DNA of 64,000 bases, from the IMG/VR virus record IMGVR_UViG_3300034069_000533, positions 65,947 to 129,946 of that record. One strand, written 5' to 3'. Below, one piece after another: positions 13,562 to 25,601 of this stretch. The translations under genes and the position numbers were made by a program. Origin of the DNA: a virus (taxonomy: Duplodnaviria > Heunggongvirae > Uroviricota > Caudoviricetes). Numbering within the stretch: the stretch's first letter is position 1; each line of letters opens with the position of its first letter. The notes beneath the pieces were generated by a model. It was not told the DNA's origin, made no database searches, and was given only the letters and a program-made list of their open reading frames with translations.

Positions 13562-13700
13562 TTTCCTGCCTCCTGCGCGAGCCGCCAATCCACCATCGGA
13601 TTTTATGCCGACGCCAAGGGTTGAATTTGGGCGGATTTGCAAAAGCAAAATAAAGGCGCTCAAGGAAGCTTTCGCGCCGTTTGTTTGTGTCGTCCATGCC

Positions 13701-14060
13701 TCACATGCTCCGCATTTCAAGGATGCGCGCCGCAGCGCCGGGGATCACAGCCAGGGCGTCCAGCGCGGCCAAGGATGCCCGCTGAGCGGCCCGCAGCGTC
13801 TTCCGGTGTAGGTTAACCGTCCGCATCGCCTGCGCCTTCTGGACGGCGCGCGGAGCCTGCCAGTTATGGGCCTCAACCCGCGCCCGGTTGGCGTGGCCAA
13901 GCTGCTTGCAGGCAACGCTATACAGATGCTCAGCGGAGGCCAGATCATCCAGAGCGCAGCGGAAAGCGTTGCGGAGCGCTTCGGCGTTGTCCATGGGCGC
14001 CACGATCTGCGGGGCATCGTAAACGGCGCAGATGGAGCGGCGGGGAACATCAAAAAACAT
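13701..14060 (-). CDS. hypothetical protein (first gene behind a consensus promoter cassette)
   Basis: 119-aa ORF; consensus cassette immediately upstream (14061-14120). Confidence 0.4.
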   Translation of the reverse strand: MFFDVPRRSICAVYDAPQIVAPMDNAEALRNAFRCALDDLASAEHLYSVACKQLGHANRARVEAHNWQAPRAVQKAQAMRTVNLHRKTLRAAQRASLAALDALAVIPGAAARILEMRSM

Positions 14061-14120
14061 TTGGTGGCTTCCTTCTCTCTGGCTCCTTTATAGCGTTAGG
14101 CACGGTATGCCGTCAACAGG
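14061..14120 (-). promoter_or_regulatory. consensus promoter-operator-leader cassette
   Basis: ttccttctctctg...atagcg-N-cacgg...gtcaac (plus-strand view), directly 5' of the start codon. Confidence 0.55.
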
Positions 14121-14148
14121 AAAAAGCGCCCGAAGGCGCTTTATTTTA
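14121..14148. terminator. bidirectional hairpin terminator
   Basis: aaaaagcgcccgaaggcgctttatttt. Confidence 0.6.
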
Positions 14149-14343
14149 AGCTAAAACTGCACGGTCAACGCTGACCCATGCTCCATCGGACTTTCGCTGA
14201 ATGCGGGCCTTGTCGTCATTGCCCCAACGACGCCAATACCATTCCCGCGCTTGTTCATCGTCGTTCAGATGCATTGCCTCTTGGACGCGCAAAGCGCCAC
14301 CATAGCCCTTGACAATTCGGTATTCGCTCTGTCCAGCACGCAT
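14146..14343 (-). CDS. hypothetical small protein
   Basis: 65-aa ORF downstream of 14357..14662 in the same transcription unit; terminator follows at 14121-14148. Confidence 0.35.
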   Translation of the reverse strand: MRAGQSEYRIVKGYGGALRVQEAMHLNDDEQAREWYWRRWGNDDKARIQRKSDGAWVSVDRAVLA

Positions 14344-14356
14344 TTTTATTTATCCC

Positions 14357-14662
14357 TTACAGGTTAAGATCAAAGCCGGTGGCGGTGCGGATTACCTGCC
14401 GCAAGCTGTCGGCATACACGCCCGAATGCTCACCCTTGTTGGTGCAGTTGATGCCGCGCACCGAGAAAAACTCAACATTATAAGTGTCGTCGGAGGTCAA
14501 CGTCACCCGCAGCTTATTGGCCTTATTCTTGGCGCCGCGACCGATGCTGAGCATAAGGCTACGCTCGCCGTACACCATGGCCGAGACGCCAACCATGGCG
14601 CAAAACTGATTGCCGCCAAGCTGAGCGAGGATGGCGGCGGGCACTTCGGGCAGGTTCGGCAT
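14357..14662 (-). CDS. hypothetical protein
   Basis: 101-aa ORF with the consensus cassette upstream. Confidence 0.4.
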   Translation of the reverse strand: MPNLPEVPAAILAQLGGNQFCAMVGVSAMVYGERSLMLSIGRGAKNKANKLRVTLTSDDTYNVEFFSVRGINCTNKGEHSGVYADSLRQVIRTATGFDLNL

Positions 14663-14720
14663 GGTGTGTGTTCCTTCTTTCTAAAGCCAATATACCGTGC
14701 CGAACGCTACACGTCAACAG
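14663..14720 (-). promoter_or_regulatory. consensus promoter-operator-leader cassette
   Basis: Same cassette. Confidence 0.55.
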
Positions 14721-14893
14721 CTAATTTTACTCGCTGCGAGCCTCAACGGAATGCGGCAAGTCGCCGCCATTCTCCTTCTTCCACATGGCCTCACCCTTGG
14801 CCGCAGCGGCAGAGGCGCTAAGCGCCTCCACGGTCTGCCAGCTAGAGCCATTGATGATTAGGCGGAATTGCCGGGGTGTGGTGGCGTCTTTCA

Positions 14894-15196
14894 TTATGCC
14901 TGCCCCGCGCGATCATAAGTGGTGCCTCTGGAAACATGCCAACCGCGCGTTGCCGCCTCTGCGGCGCAGCGGAGCGCGGCAGAATACGCGGTAAGGTCGC
15001 CCGCCTTCATAAATTCAAGCGCCTGCCGCAGATAGTCGGCAGAATTGCGCACCGCTGCGCCACCCATAGTAATATCTCTATCCTCGCAAAGATCGCGGGA
15101 AGTGGACGTGCTTACCGCATCGCTCAGCTTGTCAACATCGGCCTTGAAGGCATCGCCCGTGTAGTGGATCGGGCGGGCTCGGTAGTGCTTCGTCAT
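14894..15196 (-). CDS. hypothetical protein
   Basis: 100-aa ORF with the consensus cassette upstream. Confidence 0.4.
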   Translation of the reverse strand: MTKHYRARPIHYTGDAFKADVDKLSDAVSTSTSRDLCEDRDITMGGAAVRNSADYLRQALEFMKAGDLTAYSAALRCAAEAATRGWHVSRGTTYDRAGQA

Positions 15197-15255
15197 TTGC
15201 TGTGCTCCTTCTCTCTGAAACCTTTATATCGTGCGGAACACAGAGCGTCAACAGC
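15197..15255 (-). promoter_or_regulatory. consensus promoter-operator-leader cassette
   Basis: Same cassette. Confidence 0.55.
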
Positions 15256-16037
15256 TATTTCCCGACATACTTAAAAATTATGTGGTTGGCCAACGCTACG
15301 GCCTCCGGGTTTGGCACGGTTGCGCCCTTGCCGGACTCGGCCTTGGCGTAGTCCCATGCCCGGTCAACCATGGCGTCCAGCACCCGCACGCGCCTGCCGT
15401 GGCCAAGCTCTGATGCGGTAGCCTTAGCCATCAGCAGGGCGGAAATGGCGTCACGCTCATCCTGCGATAGCTGCAAGCCGGTGCCGGTCAAAAGCTCACG
15501 CACATCCATGGGCGGGAAACCGCAAGCGTGTTCGCGCATCCACAGGATGCAGAGCGCCGGACGCACGACATACAAATAGCGTTTGAGATTAACCGTCTCA
15601 GGATCGGCCATGTATTTGCGCTTAATTTGGTCAATCATGGCGCGGTAATGGTAGAGTGCGGCAGAGCGGTTTTCTGACAGCTTGGCTAGCTCGCTCAGGT
15701 CAGTAAAAAACTCTGAATTAACAAAATAGCCGATAGGCGAATTCATCCACTCGCGTACCGTGCTGTTGCCAGCCAGCATAAGACTCAGCGCCTTGCGAAT
15801 ATCCCAACCCGACAGATCAAGGTCATCCGGCAAATGCGGGTATTCGATCACGTCGCGGGTCTGGCCGATTGAAAGATAGCGCTGGACGTTATGGGCGTAA
15901 ATAAATCGCACATCCCAATCACTATCCGGGCTAGGAAATCCCCATGCCCGGCTGCCGGATTCTACAGCAAGCAGCACTTGGCAGGAATGCCCGCGCTCAA
16001 TCGCGCGTAGCTCAGAAACGATGCGCTTATTGTCCAT
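15255..16037 (-). CDS. nucleotidyltransferase-fold protein (Pol-beta superfamily, minimal NTase)
   Basis: GSRAWGF...SDWD matches the NTase hG[GS]x9-13Dh[DE]h motif; ~260 aa with a helical C-terminus; start coupled (TAATG) to the upstream gene. Confidence 0.5.
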   Translation of the reverse strand: MDNKRIVSELRAIERGHSCQVLLAVESGSRAWGFPSPDSDWDVRFIYAHNVQRYLSIGQTRDVIEYPHLPDDLDLSGWDIRKALSLMLAGNSTVREWMNSPIGYFVNSEFFTDLSELAKLSENRSAALYHYRAMIDQIKRKYMADPETVNLKRYLYVVRPALCILWMREHACGFPPMDVRELLTGTGLQLSQDERDAISALLMAKATASELGHGRRVRVLDAMVDRAWDYAKAESGKGATVPNPEAVALANHIIFKYVGK

Positions 16038-16333
16038 TAGCAATCCTCCTCCATCTTCTTGCGGCAAAACAAAATTACGGCATCCTCGGTTGATCCGCGA
16101 AACACAATATCCGGGCGCTTGCCAGCCTTCGTGTCGTCCATTGTTACCGTGCTGGCATCGCGGACAACAAATGCTTGGTCATATTCGTTATGCTCGCCGC
16201 AGCGCCGCACAGTCCGCACCGCGTAAATGGCAAAGCGGCTGAGCGATCCTGGCATCATGGCAACGGACAATTCCTGCCCGGCAACCAAGTGCTTCGGGCT
16301 ATTGCCGGGATTGATAGTGCGCCAGTTAAGCAT
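16037..16333 (-). CDS. hypothetical protein
   Basis: 98-aa ORF, middle gene of a three-gene unit. Confidence 0.35.
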   Translation of the reverse strand: MLNWRTINPGNSPKHLVAGQELSVAMMPGSLSRFAIYAVRTVRRCGEHNEYDQAFVVRDASTVTMDDTKAGKRPDIVFRGSTEDAVILFCRKKMEEDC

Positions 16334-16357
16334 TTCTTTATTCCCTTAAAGGCTGGC

Positions 16358-16570
16358 TTACGCCAGCCGCGCCTTGACCTCAAAGTAGGTCCAAACCCGG
16401 CCCGTACCGTTGTCGTCCACAACGTACCCGCGATCCGCGTTGGCGTAGGGCATGCTGCTCGACATATCAGGGATCGCCTGAATGTTGATAATGCGGATGC
16501 CAGCCTTGGCCAGCTTGACAATCGCACGCTTGCCGAAATCGCGGTTCGCAATCTGAAGGGCAACGGACAT
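16358..16570 (-). CDS. hypothetical small protein
   Basis: 70-aa ORF; variant cassette with a hairpin inserted in the 5' leader. Confidence 0.35.
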   Translation of the reverse strand: MSVALQIANRDFGKRAIVKLAKAGIRIINIQAIPDMSSSMPYANADRGYVVDDNGTGRVWTYFEVKARLA

Positions 16571-16650
16571 TTTAGGCTTCCTTCTACTAGGCGGCAGGAT
16601 TGCCGCCCTCTCTGTTGAACCTAACTTAGCGTGGCAAACGCTATGCGTAA
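16571..16650 (-). promoter_or_regulatory. variant cassette with leader hairpin insertion and degenerate -35
   Basis: Hairpin gggcggcaatcctgccgcc lies between CAGAGAG and the RBS; -35 is CTTTAC. Confidence 0.45.
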
Positions 16651-16654
16651 AGCA

Positions 16655-16999
16655 CTAATCGCATTTAAAATTGCGTCCGTGGTTGCGTCCTTTGCATTCG
16701 CATTCACAATCGCCCATTGGCTTGGCGCCCATACAGCGCCAATCGCAAACATGAGGATCGGGCGTCACCAAAACGCGGATTGAACGCTCAACCGGGTAAA
16801 GCTTCAGCCCATCAGGATGGCCGAACGGCAAACCAACGCGCTTACCGGAAAGCTGGCGCGGACCTCGCACGTCCGGCCAATAATTCATCATTTGACCGGC
16901 GGCGCGAGTCTCAATTTCTTGCAGGGTGTAGTTACACACGTCCTTTAACTCGAAATCTTGATGAAAGTGGATCAGCTTTCCGACGCGACGCTTAGCCAT
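16655..16999 (-). CDS. Cys-rich small protein (paralog of 17044..17385)
   Basis: 114 aa; C-terminal CDWRC...CECECKGRNHGRNFKC metal-binding cluster; consensus cassette upstream. Confidence 0.4.
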   Translation of the reverse strand: MAKRRVGKLIHFHQDFELKDVCNYTLQEIETRAAGQMMNYWPDVRGPRQLSGKRVGLPFGHPDGLKLYPVERSIRVLVTPDPHVCDWRCMGAKPMGDCECECKGRNHGRNFKCD

Positions 17000-17057
17000 A
17001 ACGCATATTCCTTCTTCCTGACAGAAAGATAGCGTGCCGCACGTTATGCGTCAAGCG
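17000..17057 (-). promoter_or_regulatory. consensus promoter-operator-leader cassette
   Basis: Same cassette. Confidence 0.55.
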
Positions 17058-17385
17058 CTATTTCTTCGCAAACAAGAAAACCTTGCCCGTGCCGGGCGCC
17101 GCCACACGAACACTCACAGCGAAAGCCCTTGGCGTCGGTGCAACGCACATCGCATTTATGCTCAGTGGTAACGCCGTCCACCGGCTTGGCATTCCAAGCA
17201 GCCTGCTTGCAGCGCGGGCACCACACATCGGCAGAGGCTTTAATCCAGTGTTCAAAGTGCATGCGGCCATACTGCTTGCCCTGACGCTTAAACATGCCTT
17301 GGCCAAGCGTCACGGTACGAAAGTCGTTGTAGTCGCGGGCGCTGGTCTGCTTGCACTCGCGGCACTTACCAATGTAGCGGACCAT
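17044..17385 (-). CDS. Cys-rich small protein (paralog of 16655..16999)
   Basis: 113 aa; CRECK...CPRCK...CDVRC...CECSCGGARHGQGF; consensus cassette upstream. Confidence 0.4.
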   Translation of the reverse strand: MVRYIGKCRECKQTSARDYNDFRTVTLGQGMFKRQGKQYGRMHFEHWIKASADVWCPRCKQAAWNAKPVDGVTTEHKCDVRCTDAKGFRCECSCGGARHGQGFLVCEEIALDA

Positions 17386-17444
17386 CTTCGCTATTCCTTC
17401 TGTCTGACAGAAAGATAGCGTTTCGCACGCTATTGGTCAAGCAG
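17386..17444 (-). promoter_or_regulatory. consensus promoter-operator-leader cassette
   Basis: Same cassette. Confidence 0.55.
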
Positions 17445-17445
17445 T

Positions 17446-17886
17446 TTATTCAGTCTTTTTTATCTTATAGCGGGCGCCGTCACGGTATGCCGCCTGAGCA
17501 AACGACAGAGCGCATATGTTGCCGCAAAACGGCTCACATGCCGTTAAGTAGTAACTTTCGCCATCCCACGTTTCCCACGTCACCCGCACGCCATGCAGGT
17601 AATTGGCGTCGCGTGTTTTATAATAGTCCGGCATGCCGTGTTGCGGTTGCTCAGCACCGGGCTTCAGCATCATGGCGCTGCGGTCAACCCATGTCTGCAA
17701 AAGATGGTGGTTGCCCTGATACTGCGGGTCCGGCTCGCCATGACAGACAAACTCGCTGGTCTTGCGCGTGTTGCGCTTGCCGTACTGCTTGCCGCATAGC
17801 GCGCAAATTGGCCGGGGTTTTGCGCCAGGAATCTTAACTCGGCGCTTGGTGGCTGTTGCAGAATGCAAATGGTGAGTAATGGTCAT
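17446..17886 (-). CDS. Cys/His-rich hypothetical protein
   Basis: 146 aa with CALCGK...CHGEPD...CEPFCGNIC. Confidence 0.35.
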   Translation of the reverse strand: MTITHHLHSATATKRRVKIPGAKPRPICALCGKQYGKRNTRKTSEFVCHGEPDPQYQGNHHLLQTWVDRSAMMLKPGAEQPQHGMPDYYKTRDANYLHGVRVTWETWDGESYYLTACEPFCGNICALSFAQAAYRDGARYKIKKTE

Positions 17887-17888
17887 AA

Positions 17889-18137
17889 TTACTCCAATCC
17901 CGCCAGAATGGTTGCAGCCTCATGACCATCGTAAAAAACCGCATTGTCGCGGGCGGTGCGGAACGCGCTGGCAGCCTTGCCAACCTTGGTGCGCAGCCCG
18001 TTAGCGCGGGCGCGATGGCTGCGGGCGGACGCCGGGTCGCCTTCGTTGGCGGCAGTCAGCGCGCAAAGGTTGGCGTCGGTCAGAGCCTCGCGGGCGGCGG
18101 TAAGCTCAGCGTACAGGCGAAGCGCGGTGGAAAGCAT
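17889..18137 (-). CDS. hypothetical small protein
   Basis: 82-aa ORF with the consensus cassette upstream. Confidence 0.35.
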   Translation of the reverse strand: MLSTALRLYAELTAAREALTDANLCALTAANEGDPASARSHRARANGLRTKVGKAASAFRTARDNAVFYDGHEAATILAGLE

Positions 18138-18197
18138 TTTGCGGTGTCCTTCTCTCTGCGTCCCTTATACCGTGGCAAACGATATTGGTCAATAGAA
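18138..18197 (-). promoter_or_regulatory. consensus promoter-operator-leader cassette
   Basis: Same cassette. Confidence 0.55.
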
Positions 18198-18221
18198 AAA
18201 TAGGGCCTAATCCCCATTAAT

Positions 18222-18692
18222 TTAGCGCTTTACGCCTACCCCATCCGAACGAAGCTCAAAGCCACGTCCATAAAATTCTTCACGGCTAACAAAGACTGGC
18301 ACAAGCCCATGCATTGCCCTGCCTGTAATGTCATAAGCAACGCGGCCAAAACTCAAACTGCTCCAACGTTTATGCTCTATTGCATATGTCTCTTTTTCGC
18401 CAAGGCCGACATTGCATACAAATACCTTATCGTCTCCCGCCTCCGGGTGGTTTGCGCTAACGTTATCGCAAAAAATGCTGGCAAAATCTTTGCGGGAATA
18501 AACCTGCTCCGGTTCTGACTCTTCCTCCACCGGCACAGGCTCAACGCTCTTGAGCGCAAAATCCGATGGCGTCTTGACCGTCTCCACAAGCTGAAGCGTT
18601 GCCGTAAACACCGCGCCGCCGGGCGTTTCCGCCCAAGCTGTTGCGCGCACTTCCTGAAAATTGCCGACAAAAACAACCGCATATTCAATCAT
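18222..18692 (-). CDS. hypothetical protein (start moved to MIEYAVVF)
   Basis: 156 aa; RBS aaagga upstream of the adjusted start. Confidence 0.35.
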   Translation of the reverse strand: MIEYAVVFVGNFQEVRATAWAETPGGAVFTATLQLVETVKTPSDFALKSVEPVPVEEESEPEQVYSRKDFASIFCDNVSANHPEAGDDKVFVCNVGLGEKETYAIEHKRWSSLSFGRVAYDITGRAMHGLVPVFVSREEFYGRGFELRSDGVGVKR

Positions 18693-20209: not shown

Positions 20210-20210
20210 G

Positions 20211-20445: not shown

Positions 20446-20530
20446 TTTTATTATTTCCTTTACATGCCACCTATAGGTGACATTTGCGATTGTAACCTAT
20501 AGGCGGCACCGCTGGTAATCGGCAGTCACA

Positions 20531-20558
20531 GTAAAAGAGGCGCCCGAAGGCGCCCCCA
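20531..20558 (-). terminator. rho-independent terminator
   Basis: Minus strand: ggcgccttcgggcgcc plus a T-rich tail. Confidence 0.55.
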
Positions 20559-20562
20559 TTCC

Positions 20563-20976
20563 TCAGCCCGCCGCCTGACCCTCGCGCTCGGCGCGCTTGC
20601 GCGCCATGGTGGCCACCCGGCCAGCGGTCATGCGCGCAACCGTCTCCGGGCTGCACTTGTAGCCCGCCGGTCGCCCGCGCTTACCCTTGGGCGGTGCCTC
20701 GCCCTCAGCGGTAGCCATCAGCGCCGTAACCTGTCGGGTCAGCGAGAGGTTGGCGTTGCTCAGCGCCACGTTGGCAACCTCAGCCTCGGCCAGCTTGGCG
20801 GAAAGGCTGTCAACCAGCGCCGTCAAGGCGGCGTCAGGGAGGCCCACAGCGACGGCACCCATGATGGCGGCGGCGGCAGCCTTGACCGCATCCGGGGCGC
20901 CTTCGGGCACGTTGGCCGGGTCAACCGACTGCATCTGGCCACGGGCATTGCGGAAGCTGATGTGAAGCTTGGTCAT
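20563..20976 (-). CDS. AT-hook-containing hypothetical protein
   Basis: 137 aa; C-terminal PKGKRGRPAGYK AT-hook; cassette with leader-hairpin insertion. Confidence 0.4.
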   Translation of the reverse strand: MTKLHISFRNARGQMQSVDPANVPEGAPDAVKAAAAAIMGAVAVGLPDAALTALVDSLSAKLAEAEVANVALSNANLSLTRQVTALMATAEGEAPPKGKRGRPAGYKCSPETVARMTAGRVATMARKRAEREGQAAG

Positions 20977-21066
20977 TGTCCTATTTCCTTCTCTCTGTTG
21001 AGAGACGGGGTTAGCTCCCCGTCCTCTCTGAAAACTAACTTAGCGTTTGCCACGCTTTAGGTCAAC
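20977..21066 (-). promoter_or_regulatory. variant cassette with leader hairpin insertion
   Basis: Hairpin gacggggagctaaccccgtc is flanked by a duplicated CAGAGAG. Confidence 0.5.
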
Positions 21067-21080
21067 AGGTTTTTTCAGAA

Positions 21081-21335
21081 TTATTTGCCGCAAACCAAAT
21101 CAATCTGAAGATTGCGGCTTTTGCCGTTTGCGTCGTCATAGGTTGAGCTGTAGCCAATGCACGGCGGCTTGCCCTGTGCCTTGGCGTCATCGCGCGCCTT
21201 CTCAAAATCAGTCATTAGGCGGTAGATGCAAGTTGAAATAGCACCGCGCCGAACCTCTTTGGCGGTTGTGCAAATCTCCAAGCCATCAATAACGAGACGG
21301 ACGCGGGCGGAATCTGCGATGCGGTGCGAGGCCAT
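21081..21335 (-). CDS. hypothetical small protein
   Basis: 84 aa from the internal MASHRIAD start adjacent to the cassette. Confidence 0.35.
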   Translation of the reverse strand: MASHRIADSARVRLVIDGLEICTTAKEVRRGAISTCIYRLMTDFEKARDDAKAQGKPPCIGYSSTYDDANGKSRNLQIDLVCGK

Positions 21336-21394
21336 TTGTCTATTCCTTCTCTCTGACTGGAAACATACCGTGCGGCACATTTCCAGTCAACAGG
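21336..21394 (-). promoter_or_regulatory. consensus promoter-operator-leader cassette
   Basis: Same cassette. Confidence 0.55.
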
Positions 21395-21409
21395 TTTTTT
21401 CAAAATTAT

Positions 21410-21661
21410 TTAGTCAATCGTCTGCATATAGGCGGCGCCAAGCTCGGTCATGTAAATGACATTCTGGCCACGGTCGTATTCCTCAGAAGTCAGATAGCCC
21501 TTTTTCGCCAGCGATCCGACCACGCCCGACAATTCCTTGCCGGTAATCCCGCTAGGCTTCTGGCTGTCGTTGATGGCCCATGCCCACACACCGTCACCAT
21601 CGGTCCCATAGTGGTTGTGCTTCAGCGACAGCATAACGGCGGCTTCGTTGGTGGTAAGCAT
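21410..21661 (-). CDS. hypothetical small protein
   Basis: 83 aa; consensus cassette upstream. Confidence 0.35.
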   Translation of the reverse strand: MLTTNEAAVMLSLKHNHYGTDGDGVWAWAINDSQKPSGITGKELSGVVGSLAKKGYLTSEEYDRGQNVIYMTELGAAYMQTID

Positions 21662-21721
21662 TTTGTTGGCTCCTTCTCTCTGACACTGAAAATAGCGTTT
21701 GCCACGCTATCTGTCAACACT
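21662..21721 (-). promoter_or_regulatory. consensus promoter-operator-leader cassette
   Basis: TTGACA-17-TATTTT with perfect ATAGCGT-ggcaa-ACGCTAT palindrome. Confidence 0.6.
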
Positions 21722-21797
21722 TTATTTTTTTTATTTGTAACCCTAACTATGGCAAAGTTATCCACAGCCATAGTTAGGGTTATCTGCTTAACTTTAA

Positions 21798-22007
21798 TTA
21801 GGGCAGAATGACATGCCCCATATTGTCACGATCAACAACATAGTAGCGCTTACCGGAAAACTGCCCGGCGCGCTTGGCGGCAGTGCGGGCGGCGGTGTCA
21901 GCATCAGCGCGCACCGTATAAGTGCGGTAGCTAAAACCAACACCCTTGGCAATGCTGTTCGTCTCGGTAACGAGAATAAAGCGGTTGGTGAAGCGCTGCT
22001 TGGTCAT
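21798..22007 (-). CDS. hypothetical small protein
   Basis: 69 aa from the MTKQRF start adjacent to the cassette. Confidence 0.35.
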   Translation of the reverse strand: MTKQRFTNRFILVTETNSIAKGVGFSYRTYTVRADADTAARTAAKRAGQFSGKRYYVVDRDNMGHVILP

Positions 22008-22066
22008 TGTCGGTGTTCCTTCTCTCTGACCTAAAGATAGCGTGCCGCACGGCATCCGTCAACAGT
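22008..22066 (-). promoter_or_regulatory. consensus promoter-operator-leader cassette
   Basis: Same cassette. Confidence 0.55.
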
Positions 22067-22073
22067 TAAATGC

Positions 22074-22108
22074 AAAAAAAAAAGCGCCCGAAGGCGCTTA
22101 ATTATTTT
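22074..22108. terminator. bidirectional hairpin terminator
   Basis: aaaaaaaaaagcgcccgaaggcgcttaattatttt. Confidence 0.65.
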
Positions 22109-22425
22109 CTAATTGTGTTCAAATGCGCAACGGGCTGCCCAACCGCTCTGGCGGCATAACATACTGTTCTGTATGCAGTCTCAATATCATAGGGAATGCC
22201 AAAATTTTCCGGCCAATCCGGCAACAAACGAAAGCTACGCATGCAGTCCATCGCTCGCAGCCTCCAATTTTCATAAGCCGTCGCTGCGCCTTCGTTCAGA
22301 CTATCAACGTATTTGTAATCAAATTCCTTGCCATTAATTGCATCGTTCCACCCACGCCGGGCAGGCTCAGCGCGATAGTCGTCGGGCACAATTCTTTTTA
22401 GTTTTTTTGAGGAAAAATTAGTCAT
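22102..22425 (-). CDS. hypothetical protein
   Basis: 107 aa from the MTNFSSKK start adjacent to the cassette; terminator at 22074-22108. Confidence 0.35.
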   Translation of the reverse strand: MTNFSSKKLKRIVPDDYRAEPARRGWNDAINGKEFDYKYVDSLNEGAATAYENWRLRAMDCMRSFRLLPDWPENFGIPYDIETAYRTVCYAARAVGQPVAHLNTIRK

Positions 22426-22484
22426 CTTTTTTCTCCTTCTCTCTGACGCCAACCATACCGTTTGGCACGGTTAGCGTCAACACT
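22426..22484 (-). promoter_or_regulatory. consensus promoter-operator-leader cassette
   Basis: Same cassette. Confidence 0.55.
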
Positions 22485-22493
22485 TTATTTTAT

Positions 22494-22745
22494 TTATTTG
22501 TAGGTCACAGACAGGTCAAGATTGACGATGGCGCGGCAAGTGTGCCGGCCCGGAATAACCTCCATCACGTCAAAGCCGCTGGCGCCATGGCTGCGAGCGC
22601 TGGACAGAGCGCGCTTGGTGCTGGACACCGCCGCCTTAACCGCATCCGCCAGAGTGGCGAAATCCTTGCCGCCCGCCATCTTGGCGCCAACGCCGTTGAT
22701 GACGTAGAAAGTGCCGGGAACAAAGGTCGGAAACTTGACGGCCAT
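22494..22745 (-). CDS. hypothetical small protein
   Basis: 83 aa; consensus cassette upstream. Confidence 0.35.
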   Translation of the reverse strand: MAVKFPTFVPGTFYVINGVGAKMAGGKDFATLADAVKAAVSSTKRALSSARSHGASGFDVMEVIPGRHTCRAIVNLDLSVTYK

Positions 22746-22804
22746 GGCGTGTATTCCTTCTCTCTGCCCCCTTTATAGCGTTCGCCACGCTACCCGTCAA
22801 CACT
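22746..22804 (-). promoter_or_regulatory. consensus promoter-operator-leader cassette
   Basis: Same cassette. Confidence 0.55.
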
Positions 22805-22808
22805 TAAA

Positions 22809-23183
22809 TCAGAAAAAATCGCAATGCGTATTGCGGAACGTTTGCGCGGCCTCGGCTGGCTGCCAGCCAGGGAGCGCCACCGGGGTGGGTCCGCGCTGGT
22901 AGACCATCACGACAGCCTCAGCCCGGCCAAGGATCGCAGCCGCCCGGCCAGACAGCCCGGCATCCGCGATAGCCTGCCGCTCAGCCGGTTTGGTCAGGTA
23001 GCCGACCGGATACAGCCGGGCGGGGCTAGCAGCCGCCAGAAGGCACGCGGGGAGCGCTGAGGCGCCAACCGTTGCCGGGCCAGCAACCGACAAGCAGCCA
23101 TCGGCAACCTCAGCAGCGGTCAGCGCGCGGCAATAACCGACATGCACAAGCGCGCTATCAGCAAACAGCATAACCCGTGTCAC
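22809..23183 (-). CDS. hypothetical protein
   Basis: ~120 aa; GTG or a nearby ATG start; no cassette, probably read through from upstream. Confidence 0.3.
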   Translation of the reverse strand: MTRVMLFADSALVHVGYCRALTAAEVADGCLSVAGPATVGASALPACLLAAASPARLYPVGYLTKPAERQAIADAGLSGRAAAILGRAEAVVMVYQRGPTPVALPGWQPAEAAQTFRNTHCDFF

Positions 23184-23185
23184 TC

Positions 23186-23358
23186 TTAAACCCCTTGCAT
23201 CTTCGCAATCTGCATCATGTCCAACAGCCGATTAAAGCGCCGAGTCGCAATAAACAACCTTTCTCCATTGTATGAATGCGGATGCTTTTTATACCGCCGG
23301 GCTGCGTAGAGAAATTTATATTTCGCTTGAGCGTAAGCAGTTTGATTAATCTGCATTA
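23186..23358 (-). CDS. hypothetical 56-aa basic protein
   Basis: ATG with RBS gagaagga; not in the ORF track. Confidence 0.3.
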
Positions 23359-23443
23359 TTTTGGTTCCTTCTCAAAAAGCCATCAACTTGACAGCCGGAG
23401 TCGGCGGGGCGATTTCCCCGCCCTCAGCCTTCCCGATTATACC

Positions 23444-23698
23444 CTAACCCGGCCAGCCATGGCGAGCGCGCAAGGCATGCCACAGCCCCTTGCAGTCAGC
23501 CTCATCGCCCTTATTCAGCGCCTCACGGATCGCAACCACGTCTTCTGGCGGGGCAAACTTGAACCGCTTGGCCGGACCCTTCCAAGCCGCGCGCTGCGTT
23601 TCATAGGAATTGGCCGCAATTGCCGTAGCCATGTCGCCTAGCCGCTTATAGATAGCGTTTGCGCCCGGCCAGCCCGGCAAATTACCTGTTGATTCCAT
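23444..23698 (-). CDS. hypothetical small protein
   Basis: 84 aa with RBS; hairpin terminator after the stop. Confidence 0.35.
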   Translation of the reverse strand: MESTGNLPGWPGANAIYKRLGDMATAIAANSYETQRAAWKGPAKRFKFAPPEDVVAIREALNKGDEADCKGLWHALRARHGWPG

Positions 23699-23952
23699 CG
23701 CCTAATTTCCTTCTTCAGCTTGCGGCGCTTTTGCGCCTGACGTGCAATATACCGCGCCATGCGCGCCTGCACACTATTTCTTTGCATTATTTCCCTTCTT
23801 TTTCCTGTCAGCCTTCCGCCATTTGTCCATGCGCGCCAACATCATATTGTGCGCCATCTGCCGGTAAGCCTCAGCCAATTTCCGGCTATCCTCGGCGGCA
23901 TCGCGCAAGCTTTGCGCATGCTGCAACCATTCCTCCGGTGTGCGTTCGGTCA

Positions 23953-24180
23953 CTATGGTTTTGCCTCGCGCAAAACCAAATCTGCAAGATCAGGCTTTCC
24001 AATCTTCTGCAAAAAATCTGCAATAACAGCGGCGGCAACTCCCCTATCGTCAACATAATAGGCGTCAATATATTCGTCTCGCTCACCTGCATAATTACCT
24101 GACGGATCGCTTTCCACAATCTTTTTACGCAAAGTAACAGCGGCGCAATTAAGCGCCCGAGAAAAATCATTTTCAGCCAT
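23953..24180 (-). CDS. hypothetical small protein
   Basis: 75 aa; TAATG coupling to the upstream gene. Confidence 0.35.
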   Translation of the reverse strand: MAENDFSRALNCAAVTLRKKIVESDPSGNYAGERDEYIDAYYVDDRGVAAAVIADFLQKIGKPDLADLVLREAKP

Positions 24181-24434
24181 TACACCGCCTCCCCATACAA
24201 AGCGTTGAAAATCTCCAACGCCTCGCCTTCCACAAAGCCAAACTCGTACATGGTGGTACGCCCCTTGTATTCGCGCCGCACGACGCGGCCCCACAGCCGG
24301 AAGAAGTCAATCTCGTTTTCGTCCTCCTCGCCCGACCGGAAGCAGGCAGCTACCACCTTGGTCGCAAACGGGCCGTCAAGGTCCGTGTGCAGGTTGTTGA
24401 CGCAATGGGCGGGAACCGGAGTGGCGAAAAGCAT
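24180..24434 (-). CDS. hypothetical small protein
   Basis: 84 aa from the MLFATPV start adjacent to the cassette. Confidence 0.35.
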   Translation of the reverse strand: MLFATPVPAHCVNNLHTDLDGPFATKVVAACFRSGEEDENEIDFFRLWGRVVRREYKGRTTMYEFGFVEGEALEIFNALYGEAV

Positions 24435-24493
24435 TGTATGTGTCCTTCTCTCTGACACCTAACTTAGCGTGCGCCACACTAAAGGTCAATAGT
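24435..24493 (-). promoter_or_regulatory. consensus promoter-operator-leader cassette
   Basis: Same cassette. Confidence 0.55.
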
Positions 24494-24761
24494 TATTTTG
24501 CACATTTTCAAGCGCGACATTCGCCTTACGCACCACGCGCGCCCACTCAGCGCCAACTAGCCGTGTGTTGTCCTTTCCGGTGCGAATATCAATAATACTG
24601 TCGAACATGGTGAATACCCGGTGCATGGCCTCGCCTTCCATGTGGCATTCATAAGCCAACACACCCGGCGGCACGGATGCCCGCTCATACGGCACGGCAT
24701 AATTGGCCGGTAGCTTCACCTTGGCGCGACTCATGATGCCATCCAGCCCATAGCCATCCAC
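24486..24761 (-). CDS. hypothetical small protein
   Basis: 91-aa ORF. Confidence 0.3.
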   Translation of the reverse strand: MDGYGLDGIMSRAKVKLPANYAVPYERASVPPGVLAYECHMEGEAMHRVFTMFDSIIDIRTGKDNTRLVGAEWARVVRKANVALENVQNNY

Positions 24762-24879
24762 AGCACGCCCGACAGCGCAAAGCCTGCCGCATATCCCGGC
24801 GCTGCCGCTGGCGACAGGCTGAGGCGAAACCCGCCAGCGATCAGCAGCGCGCCAAATCCCATGAAAACATGACCAATCA
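24731..24879 (-). CDS. small hydrophobic membrane protein
   Basis: 49 aa, almost entirely hydrophobic (GFGALLIAGGF...VLWMAMGWM). Confidence 0.3.
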
Positions 24880-24899
24880 TTTGCTTGCTCCTGCCTGCC

Positions 24900-25053
24900 T
24901 CAAGATTTGCACAAAACAACAACGATGCCAGTCATAGAGATTGAAGCCATAATTAAAAAATAAATCTTGTCTCTTGTCCTGTCGGCACATGATATGACCA
25001 TCAAAGAAAAAACAACAGTAAGAATGCTGAGCGCAAGATAAATTTCGGTAAAC
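24900..25053 (-). CDS. small hydrophobic membrane protein (GTG start)
   Basis: 51 aa with TM-like LALSILTVVFSLMVI...MTGIVVVLC; RBS agaaggaaa 6 nt before the GTG; consensus cassette upstream. Confidence 0.35.
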
Positions 25054-25119
25054 ACGGCAAATTTCCTTCTAATTTTCCTACAAACAAATATACCGTGTCG
25101 CACGCAAACGGTCAACAAA
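25054..25119 (-). promoter_or_regulatory. consensus promoter-operator-leader cassette (slightly divergent leader)
   Basis: ataccgtgtcgcacgcaaacggtcaac plus RBS agaaggaaa. Confidence 0.45.
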
Positions 25120-25146
25120 AAAAGCGCCCGAAGGCGCTTTAATCTT
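25117..25146. terminator. bidirectional hairpin terminator
   Basis: aaaaaaagcgcccgaaggcgctttaatctt. Confidence 0.6.
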
Positions 25147-25157
25147 GTCACTCATAA

Positions 25158-25541
25158 TTATTCTCCCCACACAAAGTTAACGCCATCAACCGGTTTCCAG
25201 CCCGGTAGCCATCGCGGATGCGGTGATTCCACATCCAGCAAAACGATAACTTCCACATCGTAAAACGGTTCAAGTTGCATCGCAATAGCGATTTGCGCGG
25301 TATTATAAAGAATATAAGCAAATCCCTTGTTATGCGTCTCGCCTTCGCGCTCCTTCACGATGGCGCCAAACTTGTATTTCACCGGAGGATTAGCCGCGCG
25401 CACAATATCCGCCGGCAAGCCGGATGCGTCGTTGCGGGGCGGCTGAATGCTCCATGTTCCGCTAGCCATCTGCTCAGCGGTAGCGCTGTGGCAATCTCCC
25501 ACCTTCGGCACACCGACACGGGTAAGCGCGAAAACCTGCAT
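25158..25541 (-). CDS. hypothetical protein
   Basis: 127 aa from the MQVFALT start adjacent to the cassette; terminator at 25117-25146. Confidence 0.35.
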   Translation of the reverse strand: MQVFALTRVGVPKVGDCHSATAEQMASGTWSIQPPRNDASGLPADIVRAANPPVKYKFGAIVKEREGETHNKGFAYILYNTAQIAIAMQLEPFYDVEVIVLLDVESPHPRWLPGWKPVDGVNFVWGE

Positions 25542-25601
25542 GCGTTCCGACTCCTTCTCTCTGTGGTCAGCATATCGTGGCAAACGATATGGGTCAAGGA
25601 C
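25542..25601 (-). promoter_or_regulatory. consensus promoter-operator-leader cassette
   Basis: Same cassette. Confidence 0.55.

What the first reader, a model, noticed from the sequence alone, without database searches (positions are those of the whole stretch)
13700..25601. About twenty-three copies of a 60-bp promoter-operator-leader cassette driving single small genes
Each copy reads, in the direction of transcription: TTGAC(N), a 17-bp spacer containing the inverted repeat AGCGTG-N5-CACGCT (the half-site ends ACGC abut the -10), TA(T/A)nnT, a few bases, GTCAGAGAGAAGGA, then 8-10 nt and ATG. Most copies head a one- or two-gene unit that ends in a GC-hairpin terminator. The result is a tiled array of autonomous cassettes expressing about 30 small, mostly orphan proteins. 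These include a minimal nucleotidyltransferase, Cys-rich paralogs, AT-hook proteins and tiny membrane proteins. The palindrome sits at the position of an operator, which suggests one dimeric repressor or activator controls the whole set. Three more copies at 33.3, 39.0 and 46.9 kb extend the regulon. The architecture resembles a hypervariable accessory or anti-defence island with a shared switch.
Basis: seen in the sequence. Interest (0 to 1): 0.75.

Follow-up and report, generated by a model that had tools for sequence, protein, structure and literature searches.

The report
Repeated early-promoter cassettes in a phage
An uncultured ~130-kb phage uses about 25 copies of one standard 65-bp promoter–palindrome–ribosome-site cassette to switch on short units of mostly orphan genes, a variant of the mobile promoter cassettes (PeSLs) known from T4-like phages, which could serve as a marker for finding early and counter-defence genes.

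Summary
The repeat is real, but the finding needs corrections. It lies on the minus strand. There are 20 canonical copies in 13.7–25.6 kb and 23 in the window, plus two degenerate ones. Only about 7 of 20 units are bounded by a convincing terminator.

Each copy has an A-rich tract, TTGAC(N), a 17-bp spacer holding the palindrome, TAnnnT, GTC-AGAGAG, then AAGGA, 8–9 nt and ATG. The first A of AGAGAG lies 7–8 nt after the −10, the canonical start position. AGAAGGA is the phage's general ribosome-binding site.

The window is a phage with no close isolate relative. The motif is absent from 185,579 bacterial and archaeal species genomes but conserved in relatives with 55–58% portal identity, while the cargo genes turn over. 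Unrelated phages sharing one cargo family carry their own cassettes with a different palindrome.

Best reading: PeSL-like portable early-promoter cassettes read by host sigma-70 polymerase. The sequence-invariant palindrome is probably a repressor operator, but no regulator was identified and a stem-loop role remains open. "Anti-defence island" is unsupported: 30 of 35 proteins match no family.

New variant of a known kind; moderate interest.

The parts
13701..25609 (-). Array of 20 cassette-headed transcription units carrying 35 small genes. There are 10 one-gene, 6 two-gene, 2 three-gene and 1 six-gene units; the last unit runs on towards the terminase.
   Evidence: Gene calls and unit map. 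Only the RlaP nucleotidyltransferase at 15258-16037 has a functional annotation.
25539..25609 (-). Cassette: -35 TTGACC 25597-25592, -10 TATGCT 25574-25569, ATG at 25541
   Evidence: PWM 32.5 bits; symmetric TATCGT..ACGATA palindrome
25053..25127 (-). Cassette: -35 at 25115, -10 TATATT. Longer, diverged leader with GTG start at 25055; heads two tiny hydrophobic proteins.
   Evidence: PWM 39.6 bits
24432..24501 (-). Cassette: -35 at 24489. Heads a six-gene unit; its first gene (g24434) is conserved in L010.
   Evidence: PWM 45.9 bits
22743..22812 (-). Cassette: -35 at 22800, -10 TATAAA
   Evidence: PWM 45.0 bits
22423..22492 (-). Cassette: -35 at 22480, symmetric ACCGT..ACGGT variant of the palindrome
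   Evidence: PWM 46.7 bits; hairpin dG -12.5
22005..22074 (-). Cassette: -35 at 22062
   Evidence: PWM 45.9 bits
21659..21729 (-). Cassette: -35 TTGACA at 21717
   Evidence: PWM 42.9 bits
21333..21402 (-). Cassette: -35 at 21390. Has an extra 9-bp outer inverted repeat, GACTGGAAA/TTTCCAGTC.
   Evidence: PWM 44.3 bits; read from the sequence
20974..21077 (-). Cassette: -35 at 21065. A GC-rich hairpin is inserted in the leader between the predicted start site and a second AGAGAGAAGGA.
   Evidence: PWM 51.3 bits
20149..20218 (-). Cassette: -35 at 20206, right arm degenerate (ACTC)
   Evidence: PWM 34.0 bits
19885..19953 (-). Cassette: -35 at 19941
   Evidence: PWM 36.1 bits
19534..19602 (-). Cassette: -35 at 19590
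   Evidence: PWM 49.8 bits
19019..19089 (-). Cassette: -35 at 19077, 7-1-7 palindrome AGCGTTG-C-CAACGCT
   Evidence: PWM 42.7 bits
18135..18204 (-). Cassette: -35 at 18192
   Evidence: PWM 38.1 bits
17383..17452 (-). Cassette: -35 at 17440; heads Cys-rich protein g17385
   Evidence: PWM 45.7 bits
16997..17066 (-). Cassette: -35 at 17054; heads Cys-rich paralogue g16999
   Evidence: PWM 42.3 bits
16568..16663 (-). Cassette: -35 TTTACG at 16651, with a hairpin inserted in the leader. Heads g16570 (a widespread 70-aa family), g16333 and the RlaP nucleotidyltransferase.
   Evidence: PWM 39.6 bits
15194..15263 (-). Cassette: -35 at 15251
   Evidence: PWM 40.3 bits
14660..14729 (-). Cassette: -35 at 14717; heads g14662, which is conserved in L010
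   Evidence: PWM 53.7 bits
14058..14128 (-). Cassette: -35 at 14116, the only copy with an 18-bp spacer. Heads g14060 (conserved in L009 and L010) and the run of genes leading to the terminase.
33307..33375 (-). Outlying cassette: -35 at 33363, preceded by a terminator
   Evidence: PWM 47.6 bits
38990..39058 (-). Outlying cassette: -35 at 39046, leader GTTGAGAAGGA, immediately downstream of the Acb3 gene
   Evidence: PWM 43.8 bits
46887..46954 (-). Outlying cassette: -35 at 46942, immediately downstream of the primase gene
   Evidence: PWM 49.6 bits
36756..36847 (-). Degenerate cassette: TTGACC 36835-36830, palindrome 36829-36813 shifted towards the -35, hairpin leader, TTG start at 36758. Heads the S49 peptidase / winged-helix / SPFH operon.
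60013..60095 (+). Degenerate cassette and the only plus-strand copy: TTATCA, 17-bp spacer with TTCGTTTGACACGG, TATGCT, long leader CAGAGACGGAG, ATG at 60093
25121..25140 (-). Intrinsic terminator (stem GCGCCTTCGGGCGC plus T run) abutting the next -35
22082..22099 (-). Terminator with the same GCGCCTTCGGGCGC stem
20536..20557 (-). Terminator with the same stem, internal to the unit headed by the 21065 cassette
14123..14142 (-). Terminator with the same stem, abutting the 14116 cassette
20217..20232 (-). Terminator (AGCCCCGCAAGGGGCT plus T run) before the 20206 cassette
19948..19967 (-). Terminator before the 19941 cassette
18199..18218 (-). Terminator before the 18192 cassette
22820..22835 (-). 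Weaker terminator-like hairpin before the 22800 cassette
61144..61374 (-). Candidate regulator, not linked to the site: 76-aa Cro/YdaS-like HTH protein
   Evidence: Pfam E 1e-4, below the curated cutoff; no PDB match; structure model poor
35197..35778 (-). Candidate regulator, not linked to the site: 193-aa protein with an N-terminal winged helix, second gene of the operon headed by the degenerate 36.8-kb cassette
   Evidence: Pfam EarA 23.4 bits against a cutoff of 22; TrmB and IclR HTH below cutoff

Best explanation
The repeats are portable early-expression cassettes of a lytic-looking phage of about 130 kb. They are the functional equivalent of the PeSLs (promoter-early stem-loops) of T4-like phages.

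1. Promoter. Each cassette is a near-consensus promoter for the host's sigma-70 RNA polymerase: an A-rich UP-like tract, TTGAC(N), a 17-bp spacer and TAnnnT. Inferred from sequence; my estimate is about 0.85.
2. Leader. Transcription should start at the A of GTC-A-GAGAG. That gives a purine-only, unstructured 5' UTR of about 20 nt whose AAGGA Shine-Dalgarno sits 8-9 nt before the ATG, so each small gene is expressed strongly and on its own from the moment of DNA entry. About 0.8.
3. Insulation. Terminators placed directly against the next -35 insulate some units.
4. Palindrome. TAnCGT-N5-ACGnTA fills the spacer and runs into the -10. It is most likely the operator of a dimeric, phage-encoded repressor that occludes RNA polymerase and shuts the whole set of at least 25 promoters off together after the early phase, as Aca proteins do at anti-CRISPR promoters. 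About 0.45; the protein is unidentified.
5. Evolution. Because the same 65 bp flank unrelated genes, the cassettes also act as patches of homology through which promoter-plus-gene modules are gained, lost and reordered. About 0.5.

Nothing here has been shown experimentally.
For: Copy number and specificity:
- 23 canonical copies score >=32 bits and nothing else in the window reaches 12 bits.
- All copies are intergenic and all but one lie on the transcribed strand.
- An independent sigma-70 consensus scan finds 25 sites against 10.0 +/- 3.3 in shuffles.

Start site and leader:
- The A of CAGAGAG lies 7-8 nt after the -10 in 18 of 23 copies and 6 nt in one more.
- AGAAGGA also precedes 22 of 109 non-cassette genes, so it is the general RBS. 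AGAGAGAAGGA precedes 0 of 109 non-cassette genes but 15 of 23 cassette-headed genes.
- Conservation stops sharply at about -45 and at the SD.

Not a host repeat:
- The core pattern has 0 hits in 185,579 bacterial and archaeal species genomes and 0 in IMG/VR.

Conserved under selection:
- 13 more copies occur in three relatives whose portal is only 55-58% identical, again heading small genes upstream of the terminase.
- Only about 5 of 35 cargo genes are shared, and their order differs.

Evidence for an operator:
- G17, T18, A24 and C25 are invariant in 35 of 35 copies.
- The left-arm TA is conserved although it has no promoter role.
- The half-sites are 11 bp apart.
- The hairpin is weak: mean dG -5.8 against -3.1 kcal/mol for shuffles, and 8 of 23 copies are no better than shuffled.
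- L008 and L009 use TATCGT..ACGATA symmetrically, as expected if the site co-evolves with a protein.

Generality:
- Unrelated phages that share the g16570 cargo family have their own cassettes with the same layout and a private palindrome abutting the -10: L025 with 11 copies, L023 with 7 and L028 with 5.

Mosaicism:
- Left-half and right-half similarities between copies are uncorrelated (Mantel r 0.01, p 0.42).

Precedents:
- PeSLs have the same parts list, and their promoter, attenuator and mini-circle activities were shown experimentally (PMC2839356, PMC4122927).
- In archaeal viruses, early anti-defence genes share one regulatory sequence thought to be repressed by the winged-helix protein Aca8 (PMC11065993).
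Against: - There are no transcription data, and the host is unknown.
- No regulator was identified. The two HTH candidates are weak, and about half of the roughly 130-kb genome lies outside the window.
- Arm pairing exceeds the column shuffles (64.5% against 59.3%; covariation score 0.188 against 0.125; 0 of 500 shuffles reach either).
- Non-Watson-Crick cells favour G.T over A.C, 12 to 3.
- L010 has copies with 11-12-bp arms and compensatory changes on both arms, and L025 shows C-G and G.T substitutions. These point to selection for base pairing on the sense strand, which a protein site on duplex DNA does not need.
- The mosaic pattern could also come from independent selection on each half.
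- No near-identical genome was available to show indels at cassette boundaries.
Confidence: 0.55

Rival explanations
1. The inverted repeat is a nucleic-acid structure, as in classical PeSLs, and not a protein site. On read-through RNA it would form a stem-loop that attenuates or terminates upstream transcription, or marks an RNase processing site, so that each unit is expressed only from its own promoter. Alternatively it extrudes as a hairpin or cruciform in DNA. The promoter and leader parts are as in the best explanation.
For: - In the RB49/phi1 PeSLs the stem-loop most often lies between the -35 and -10 or overlaps the -10, and one such stem-loop reduced read-through about as much as rrnB T1 (PMC2839356).
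- Pairing and covariation exceed the shuffles, 0 of 500.
- G.T outnumbers A.C 12 to 3. C16->T occurs 5 times, while the mirror change G26->A never occurs.
- L010 has copies with 11-12-bp arms and three compensatory pairs.
- L025 shows T-A to C-G changes with T.G intermediates.
- 13 of the 20 array units have no separate terminator.
Against: - Only 3 base pairs are solid in every copy, and there are 47 transversion-type mismatches in pairs d2-d8.
- Mean dG is only -5.8 kcal/mol, 8 of 23 copies are no better than shuffled, and there is no T run after the stem.
- The position is fixed and four bases are invariant across four phages, whereas PeSL stems vary in both position and sequence.
- Dedicated GC-rich terminators exist next to 7 cassettes, which would be redundant.
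- The innermost pair (columns 19/23) shows no association: 15 paired against 20 unpaired.
- The copies are related by descent, so the shuffle control overstates the significance.
Confidence: 0.25
2. The palindrome is bound by a host transcription factor, so that early phage expression is tied to the host's physiological state.
For: The site is in an operator position. No phage regulator was found.
Against: - The site matches no host-regulator consensus that I know of (my own knowledge, not tested).
- The full cassette pattern is absent from 185,579 species genomes, although the bare palindrome was not searched on its own.
- Unrelated phages carrying the same cargo family each use a different palindrome, which fits private phage regulators better.
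Confidence: 0.07
3. The cassettes are read by a phage-specific polymerase or sigma factor that recognises a promoter hairpin, as the virion RNA polymerase of N4 does. On this view the sigma-70 resemblance is incidental.
For: There is an inverted repeat with a 3-5-nt loop upstream of the start site. N4 early promoters are DNA hairpins (PMC4496689, listed; details from my own knowledge).
Against: - The -35, the 17-bp spacer and the -10 are conserved as such in every lineage, even where the palindrome sequence differs.
- No RNA polymerase or sigma gene was seen among the window's large or annotated proteins. The other half of the genome is unseen.
- The stem is not uniformly formed.
Confidence: 0.05
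4. The repeats are selfish or neutral elements (MITE- or REP-like) with no regulatory function.
For: They are short, numerous, carry an inverted repeat and are intergenic.
Against: - 24 of the 25 copies point in the direction of transcription.
- Every copy sits at a fixed 8-10 nt from a start codon.
- There are no hits in bacterial genomes.
- The cassette is conserved in relatives with 55-58% portal identity while the flanking genes change.
- The conserved columns coincide with promoter and RBS positions.
Confidence: 0.03

Closest known systems
PeSLs (promoter-early stem-loops) of T4-like phages RB49/phi1, PST/T4 and nt-1/KVP40 (Arbiol et al. 2010, PMC2839356; Comeau et al. 2014, PMC4122927)
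   Same: - The parts list and order match: AT-rich tract, near-consensus sigma-70 -35, N17, -10, an inverted repeat most often between the -35 and -10 or overlapping the -10, then SD and ATG.
- They are dense in a hyperplastic region of orphan genes.
- The cargo differs between relatives.
- A terminator function is associated with the element.
- The copies are mosaics.
   Different: - The host genome here is not T4-like. It has a Phage_portal_3 portal with <30% identity to any GenBank phage and a Pa193/E217/PhiTE-type head and tail.
- The repeat has one fixed position and a sequence-specific core (CGT/ACG invariant in 35/35), rather than a G(n)/C(n) stem of variable position.
- The stem is weak, and separate GC-rich terminators do the terminating.
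- The start-site region (GTCAGAGAG) is also conserved.
- Recombination and mini-circles were not tested here.
Aca-repressed anti-CRISPR promoters, and the shared early regulatory sequence of archaeal viruses with Aca8 (PMC11065993)
   Same: A strong early promoter is shared by many small, mostly single, unannotated genes. An inverted repeat lies within the core promoter and is proposed to be bound by a small virus-encoded HTH or winged-helix repressor that shuts the burst off. The motif can be used as bait to list early and anti-defence genes.
   Different: That is an archaeal BRE/TATA promoter rather than sigma-70. In bacterial acr operons one or two promoters are controlled, not about 25 (my own knowledge). 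No Aca-like protein was identified here, and no cargo gene is a known anti-defence gene.
SPO1 host-takeover module (Stewart et al. 1998; summarised in PMC6873191)
   Same: A block of about 12 kb carries some two dozen small early genes in many short operons, each with promoters and ribosome-binding sites typical of very highly expressed genes.
   Different: That is a Gram-positive phage with a different promoter sequence. A shared palindrome in the spacer is not part of its description as far as I know. Several of its genes have demonstrated host shut-off functions, whereas none is known here.
Stoperators and operators of Cluster A mycobacteriophages (PMC6550527, PMC9283540)
   Same: One repressor recognises 20-30 copies of a short site spread over the genome. 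The site consensus co-varies with the repressor between lineages.
   Different: Stoperators are asymmetric, are bound by a monomer, are mostly not in promoters, and block elongation in temperate phages. Here every site is symmetric and sits inside a promoter, and no integrase or immunity repressor is seen in the window.
N4 virion-RNA-polymerase early promoters (PMC4496689)
   Same: There is an inverted repeat just upstream of the start site of early genes.
   Different: N4 promoters lack sigma-70 hexamers and need a giant virion polymerase (my own knowledge). Here the hexamers are at consensus and no such polymerase is seen in the window.

Membership tests
PeSL (T4-like phage promoter-early stem-loop) | [quoted passage not shown] | tested here: met
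   Columns -9 to -5 upstream of TTGAC carry 0.8-1.1 bits of A/T signal (AAAAT-like) or a terminator T run.
PeSL (T4-like phage promoter-early stem-loop) | Near-consensus sigma-70 -35 / N17 / -10 | tested here: met
   TTGAC(N) in 22 of 23 copies, a 17-bp spacer in 22 of 23, and TAnnn(T/C/A/G).
PeSL (T4-like phage promoter-early stem-loop) | Sequence able to form a stable stem-loop within or next to the promoter | tested here: inconclusive
   The inverted repeat is present in every copy, but mean dG is -5.8 against -3.1 kcal/mol for shuffles and 8 of 23 copies are no better than shuffled. Some covariation and a G.T bias are seen.
PeSL (T4-like phage promoter-early stem-loop) | Shine-Dalgarno and start codon at the 3' end of the element | tested here: met
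   GAAGGA is followed by 8-9 nt and then ATG or GTG in 21 of 23 copies.
PeSL (T4-like phage promoter-early stem-loop) | Concentrated in a hyperplastic region, next to orphan genes that differ between relatives | tested here: met
   There are 20 copies in 12 kb. 30 of 35 proteins match no family. About 5 of 35 are shared with relatives, in a different order. The relatives are distant, however, so individual events cannot be traced.
PeSL (T4-like phage promoter-early stem-loop) | Recombination between copies (mini-circles, indels ending in the elements) | not testable with these tools
   Only indirect evidence: mosaic copies (Mantel r 0.01). No near-identical genome was found.
PeSL (T4-like phage promoter-early stem-loop) | Resident in a T4-like (Tevenvirinae) genome | tested here: not met
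   The head and packaging genes are of the Phage_portal_3 / DUF2213 / PF09950 type, and the portal is <30% identical to any deposited phage.
Repressor-operator regulon (Aca-like early shut-off) | Palindromic site overlapping the core promoter | tested here: met
   TAnCGT-N5-ACGnTA occupies spacer positions 3-17 and the first two bases of the -10. It gives 20 hits against 0.88 expected.
Repressor-operator regulon (Aca-like early shut-off) | Half-sites conserved in sequence, about one helical turn apart | tested here: met
   G17, T18, A24 and C25 are invariant in 35 of 35 copies across four phages. The centre-to-centre distance is 11 bp.
Repressor-operator regulon (Aca-like early shut-off) | Cognate DNA-binding protein encoded by the phage | tested here: inconclusive
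   The Cro/YdaS-like protein (61144-61374) is below the Pfam cutoff. The winged-helix protein (35197-35778) is barely above one cutoff. There is no PDB sequence match, and neither is linked to the site. About half of the genome is unseen.
Repressor-operator regulon (Aca-like early shut-off) | Binding and repression demonstrated | not testable with these tools
   This needs EMSA, DAP-seq and reporter assays.
Cluster A mycobacteriophage stoperators | Asymmetric 13-bp sites, mostly outside promoters, oriented with transcription | tested here: not met
   The sites here are symmetric, and all 25 lie inside promoter-like cassettes. The family definition is from PMC6550527.
N4-type hairpin promoters | Hairpin promoter without sigma-70 hexamers, read by a virion RNA polymerase | tested here: not met
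   Consensus hexamers are present in all copies. No polymerase gene was found among the window's large ORFs. The rest of the genome was not examined.
Host REP/MITE-like repeat | Also present in bacterial chromosomes and/or inside coding regions | tested here: not met
   0 hits in 185,579 species genomes. All copies are intergenic.

The most novel reading that the evidence does not exclude
Tagging early promoters with an operator may be a general and so far undescribed design in phages. In this design one small phage repressor controls two dozen or more standardised immediate-early promoters through a lineage-private palindrome wedged between the -35 and -10. Unrelated phage lineages (this clade, L025, L023, L028) would each have evolved their own 'code' while exchanging the same cargo genes. 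If so, the cassette is both a master off-switch and a barcode that lists a phage's complete immediate-early (host-takeover and counter-defence) gene set from sequence alone.
Probability: 0.3. Interest if true: 0.7.

Novelty: new variant of a known kind. Interest (0 to 1): 0.5.

Why it matters
If the cassettes are immediate-early promoters, then about 45 mostly orphan genes in this one window are marked as the first products made after DNA entry. This is the class in which host-takeover and anti-defence proteins are usually found. They could be listed from sequence alone, as was done for archaeal viruses (PMC11065993).

The finding also extends the PeSL idea of portable promoter-plus-gene modules beyond T4-like phages to at least four other lineages. 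It adds a feature that classical PeSLs lack: a sequence-specific, lineage-private palindrome. That palindrome offers a testable route to a single regulator controlling about 25 promoters.

The cassette is also a compact, apparently very strong and possibly switchable expression part.

Tried and rejected
- Close relatives by DNA: none in GenBank phages.
- Close relatives by portal or primase peptides in IMG/VR: none.
- Motif scans:
  - The 7 IMG/VR hits to a looser pattern are single occurrences in unrelated contigs, about the number I estimate chance would give for 19 specified bases.
  - The 5 metagenome hits are one unrelated conserved locus at 43% GC with no promoter.
- Host REP-like repeat: rejected, with 0 hits in species genomes.
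- Array made by gene duplication: rejected. Only two weak paralogue pairs exist among the 35 genes.
- Strong hairpin or terminator role for the spacer repeat: weak energies.
- Strict covariation: the outer pair 15/27 and the inner pair 19/23 do not co-vary convincingly.
- Looking for the regulator among conserved cassette-headed proteins: the g16570 family gives a confident model (pLDDT 90) but no significant PDB fold match and no DNA-binding resemblance.
- The Cro-like protein modelled from a single sequence was unusable.
- Pfam on 70 small proteins found no sigma factor, anti-sigma factor or clear repressor.
- Sigma-54 and ECF-type readings of the spacer were checked by eye and do not fit the spacing.
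- Rfam finds no known RNA family in the cassettes.
- The g16570 family is absent from the species genome collection, so it gave no host assignment.

Full report
**What the window is.** Nearly all genes lie on the minus strand, and GC skew is negative throughout.
- PHROG and Pfam searches identify the following:
  - a large terminase interrupted by intein/HINT domains (8228-11476);
  - a Phage_portal_3 portal (6849-8231), a DUF2213 protease and a PF09950 major capsid protein;
  - further along, in the direction from which transcription comes, a replication module with a DUF3987 primase, two helicases and a Cas4-like exonuclease.
- There is no DNA match in GenBank phages, and the portal is under 30% identical to any deposited phage.
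- The identical portal protein is on record from a 129,946-bp contig, so the window is about half of an uncultured phage genome.
- No integrase was seen in the window.

**Checking the observation.** The repeat is real, but several details need correcting.
- The leader GTCAGAGAGAAGGA gives 17 hits at up to 2 mismatches against 0.18 expected, all on the minus strand.
Laying the copies out shows the real repeat is TAGCGT-N5-ACGCTA, which is the same as AGCGTG-N3-CACGCT. In that form it gives 20 hits against 0.88 expected.
- A weight matrix built from 22 copies scores all of them at 32 bits or more, and nothing else in 64 kb reaches 12 bits on either strand.
- One more copy, with its -35 at 14116, has an 18-bp spacer.
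- The totals are 20 copies in 13.7-25.6 kb and three outliers (33363, 39046, 46942).
- There are also two degenerate copies. One at about 36.84 kb heads the S49-peptidase / winged-helix / SPFH operon. The other at about 60.03 kb is the only plus-strand copy.
- All promoter cores are intergenic.

**Anatomy of the cassette.** Conservation starts about 9 nt upstream of the -35 with an A-rich tract and stops at the Shine-Dalgarno sequence. The flanks carry no information. In order, each copy reads:
- (A-rich) c-T-G;
- TTGAC(N);
- a 17-bp spacer, nn-TA-n-CGT-K-nnn-M-ACG-n;
- TAnnnT;
- 3-4 nt, then GTC-AGAGAG-AAGGA;
- 8-9 nt, then ATG.

Two points follow from this layout.
- The A of CAGAGAG lies 7-8 nt after the -10 hexamer in 18 of 23 copies and 6 nt in one more. 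That is the canonical sigma-70 start distance.
- AGAAGGA also precedes 22 of 109 genes that have no cassette, so it is simply this phage's ribosome-binding site. The AGAGAG extension occurs at 0 of 109 such genes against 15 of 23 cassette-headed genes. The 'leader' is therefore the start-site region fused to the standard RBS, giving a purine-only 5' UTR of about 20 nt.

**Transcription units and cargo.**
- The 20 array cassettes head 10 one-gene, 6 two-gene, 2 three-gene and 1 six-gene units. The last unit runs on towards the terminase.
- Convincing GC-hairpin plus T-run terminators abut only about 7 of the 20 cassettes. Four share the identical stem GCGCCTTCGGGCGC. The other cassettes are preceded by A-rich tracts.
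- Of the 35 array proteins, 30 match nothing in Pfam or PHROGs. The only functional label is a 260-aa RlaP-family nucleotidyltransferase.
- Only two weak paralogue pairs exist, so the array did not arise by gene duplication. The same promoter fronts unrelated genes.

**Not a host repeat, and conserved in relatives.**
- The core pattern has no hit in one genome from each of 185,579 bacterial and archaeal species, and none in IMG/VR.
- Five metagenome hits are one unrelated locus.
- Relatives were reached through portal homologues of 40-64% identity.
- Three contigs with sequence upstream of the terminase (L008, L009 and L010; portal 55-58% identical) carry 13 more copies, each heading a small gene. 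The CGT-N5-ACG core and the (G)TCAGAGAGAAGGAA leader are kept.
- L008 and L009 use TATCGT..ACGATA symmetrically.
- Only about five array genes have homologues in these relatives, and g14662 and g16570 are in swapped order in L010.
- So the cassette is conserved while its cargo turns over.

**Is the palindrome an operator or a stem-loop?**

Evidence for a protein site:
- Four bases are invariant in 35 of 35 copies from four phages.
- The left-arm TA is conserved although it has no promoter role.
- The half-sites are 11 bp apart.
- The position never varies.
- As a structure it is weak: mean -5.8 against -3.1 kcal/mol for shuffles, 8 of 23 copies are no better than shuffled, and no T run follows the stem.
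- 47 transversion-type mismatches leave only three pairs solid in every copy.

Evidence for base pairing:
- Pairing and covariation exceed column shuffles, with 0 of 500 reaching either observed value. The copies are related by descent, so this overstates the significance.
- G.T cells outnumber A.C cells 12 to 3.
- Four L010 copies have 11-12-bp arms spanning the -35 to the -10, and one of them has three compensatory pairs.

I rank the operator first, at about 0.45, and a PeSL-type stem-loop second, at about 0.25. The two are not mutually exclusive.

**Search for the regulator.**
- Neither has a PDB sequence relative, and a single-sequence model of the first was unusable.
- The winged-helix gene sits in the operon headed by the degenerate 36.8-kb cassette. 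That would suit autoregulation, but this is only a pointer.
- A conserved operator implies a conserved regulator, so I examined g16570, the most conserved cassette-headed protein. It gives a confident model (pLDDT 90) with no significant fold match. It is cargo, not an identifiable regulator.

**The design recurs in other phages.** The g16570 family occurs in 22 protein clusters. Its genomic contexts are different phage types, including an HK97-like head (L025) and an integrase-bearing temperate phage (L023). None carries the window's cassette, but several have their own:

| Locus | Copies | -35 | Spacer | -10 | Inverted repeat |
|---|---|---|---|---|---|
| L025 | 11 | TTGTAA | GGCTGCGCACCTTGCAC | TATGTT | TGTAAGG/CCTTACA |
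| L023 | 7 | TTGCGC | nnnAGTTACGnnnnnCG | TAATAT | TTACG-N5-CGTAA |
| L028 | 5 | TTGACA | tGGAATCCTAACGGGTT | CATAAA | GAATCC-N4-GGGTTC |

- L025 also has a conserved hairpin-containing leader before the SD and ATG.
- In each case the spacer is 17 bp, the repeat abuts or overlaps the -10, and a lineage-specific leader follows.
- L004/L006, an unrelated 80-kb contig, repeats TTGACG followed by GTCCnnnnGGAC.

**Comparison with what is known.**
- The closest described elements are the PeSLs of T4-like phages. They have an AT-rich tract, consensus sigma-70 hexamers with N17, a stem-loop most often between the -35 and -10, and an SD and ATG. They are dense among orphan genes in hyperplastic regions, and promoter, attenuator and mini-circle recombination activities have been demonstrated (PMC2839356, PMC4122927).
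- The present cassettes share the parts list and the setting. Their halves are mosaic (Mantel r 0.01, p 0.42).
- They differ in four ways:
  - the genome is not T4-like;
  - the repeat is fixed in position and specific in sequence;
  - separate terminators do the terminating;
  - the start-site region is conserved as well.
- Functionally they also resemble three other systems:
  - Aca-controlled anti-CRISPR promoters and the shared early regulatory sequence of archaeal viruses (PMC11065993);
  - the SPO1 host-takeover module (PMC6873191);
  - more loosely, the stoperator regulons of mycobacteriophages (PMC6550527).

**Verdict.** The promoter-leader reading is well supported by sequence. The operator reading is plausible but unproven. 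The anti-defence label is unsupported. This is a new variant of a known kind of element and is of moderate interest. Its main value is as a sequence marker for immediate-early genes and as evidence that PeSL-like modular cassettes, here carrying private palindromes, are widespread outside T4-like phages.

Noticed in passing
window 29934-30084 (+) and 30320-31753 (+): A Ro60/TROVE-domain protein (Pfam E 3e-15; PHROG 'RNA-binding protein') is preceded by an odd 151-nt Rfam tRNA hit (35.2 bits). This may be a YrlA-type Y RNA with a tRNA-like module, on the strand opposite to most genes.
   Followed up: no
window 15258-16037 (-), 37468-38274 (+), 38274-38696 (+), 28482-29018 (+), 42607-43182 (-): The phage carries a set of RNA-repair and nucleotide-signalling genes: an RlaP nucleotidyltransferase, a Thg1-like tRNA-His guanylyltransferase, a YAcAr SLOG protein, a metallophosphoesterase and a NADAR domain protein. 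Together with Ro, this suggests a toolkit against tRNA- or RNA-targeting defences.
   Followed up: partly
window 39271-40050 (-): There is a strong match to the CBASS inhibitor Acb3 (Pfam PF25187, E 1e-75). The gene lies immediately upstream of the 39046 cassette but is not itself headed by a cassette.
   Followed up: no
window 8228-11476 (-): The large terminase is 1082 aa against about 455-480 aa in relatives. It carries intein/HINT matches at two places (residues ~170-263 and ~540-810), so there are probably two inteins. A relative (L020) has an intein in its Mu-F-like head protein instead.
   Followed up: no
window 63484-63840 (+): A phage-encoded protein carries a ribosomal L7/L12 C-terminal domain (Pfam E 3e-14). 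It lies in a plus-strand gene block (61.5-63.8 kb) that diverges from the Cro-like gene.
   Followed up: no
window 20974-21077, 16568-16663, 36756-36847 (-); L010 ~4030-4110: Three cassettes have a GC-rich hairpin inserted between the predicted start site and the SD. The g16570 orthologue in L010 keeps such a structured leader. These could be 5' stabilisers or gene-specific riboregulators.
   Followed up: partly
L025:4373-12984, L023:7399-11906, L028:2847-4598, L036:3839-6616: Unrelated phages that carry the g16570 cargo family have their own repeated cassettes of promoter, spacer palindrome and leader (11, 7, 5 and 3-4 copies). L023 is temperate (it has an integrase), so there the palindrome might be an immunity-repressor site.
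   Followed up: partly
L004:1372-8453 and L006:4667-11748 (IMG/VR 34-kb and 81-kb contigs): The motif TTGACG + GTCC-N4-GGAC is repeated on both strands near promoters. One copy is followed by the same TCAGAGAGAAGGAG leader as in the window. Several other unrelated viral contigs (L002, L003, L005) also show TTGAC-N17-TA...TCAGAGAGAAGGA-N8-ATG.
   Followed up: partly
window 16361-16570 (-); P0018-P0039: A 61-77-aa protein family is found in small-gene arrays of several phage types (22 clusters, one from a contig binned to Massilia). It has a confident predicted alpha/beta fold (pLDDT 90) with no significant PDB match. It is absent from 185,579 species genomes.
   Followed up: yes
window 5156-5541 (+) and 33611-33685 (-): Four tRNA genes (Leu-TAA, Leu-TAG, Pro-TGG, Tyr-GTA) lie on the strand opposite to the surrounding head genes, between the protease and Mu-F-like genes. 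A tRNA-Gln lies just upstream of the 33363 cassette.
   Followed up: no
window 26748-27446 (-) and 46952-49615 (-); GC dips at 26-28 kb and 42-44 kb: A GIY-YIG endonuclease-like gene shares a 68-aa stretch (37% identity) with the primase gene product. Both regions of low GC (0.44-0.47) look like recent insertions, possibly by homing endonucleases.
   Followed up: no
L013-L017 (JGI metagenome contigs, ~43% GC): A conserved locus, CTACAACCGTATGAAACGTTACGAGAGATGACAGAGAGAAGGACGATAGCC, recurs in five marine-type contigs. It matched the search pattern but has no promoter layout. It is unexplained.
   Followed up: no
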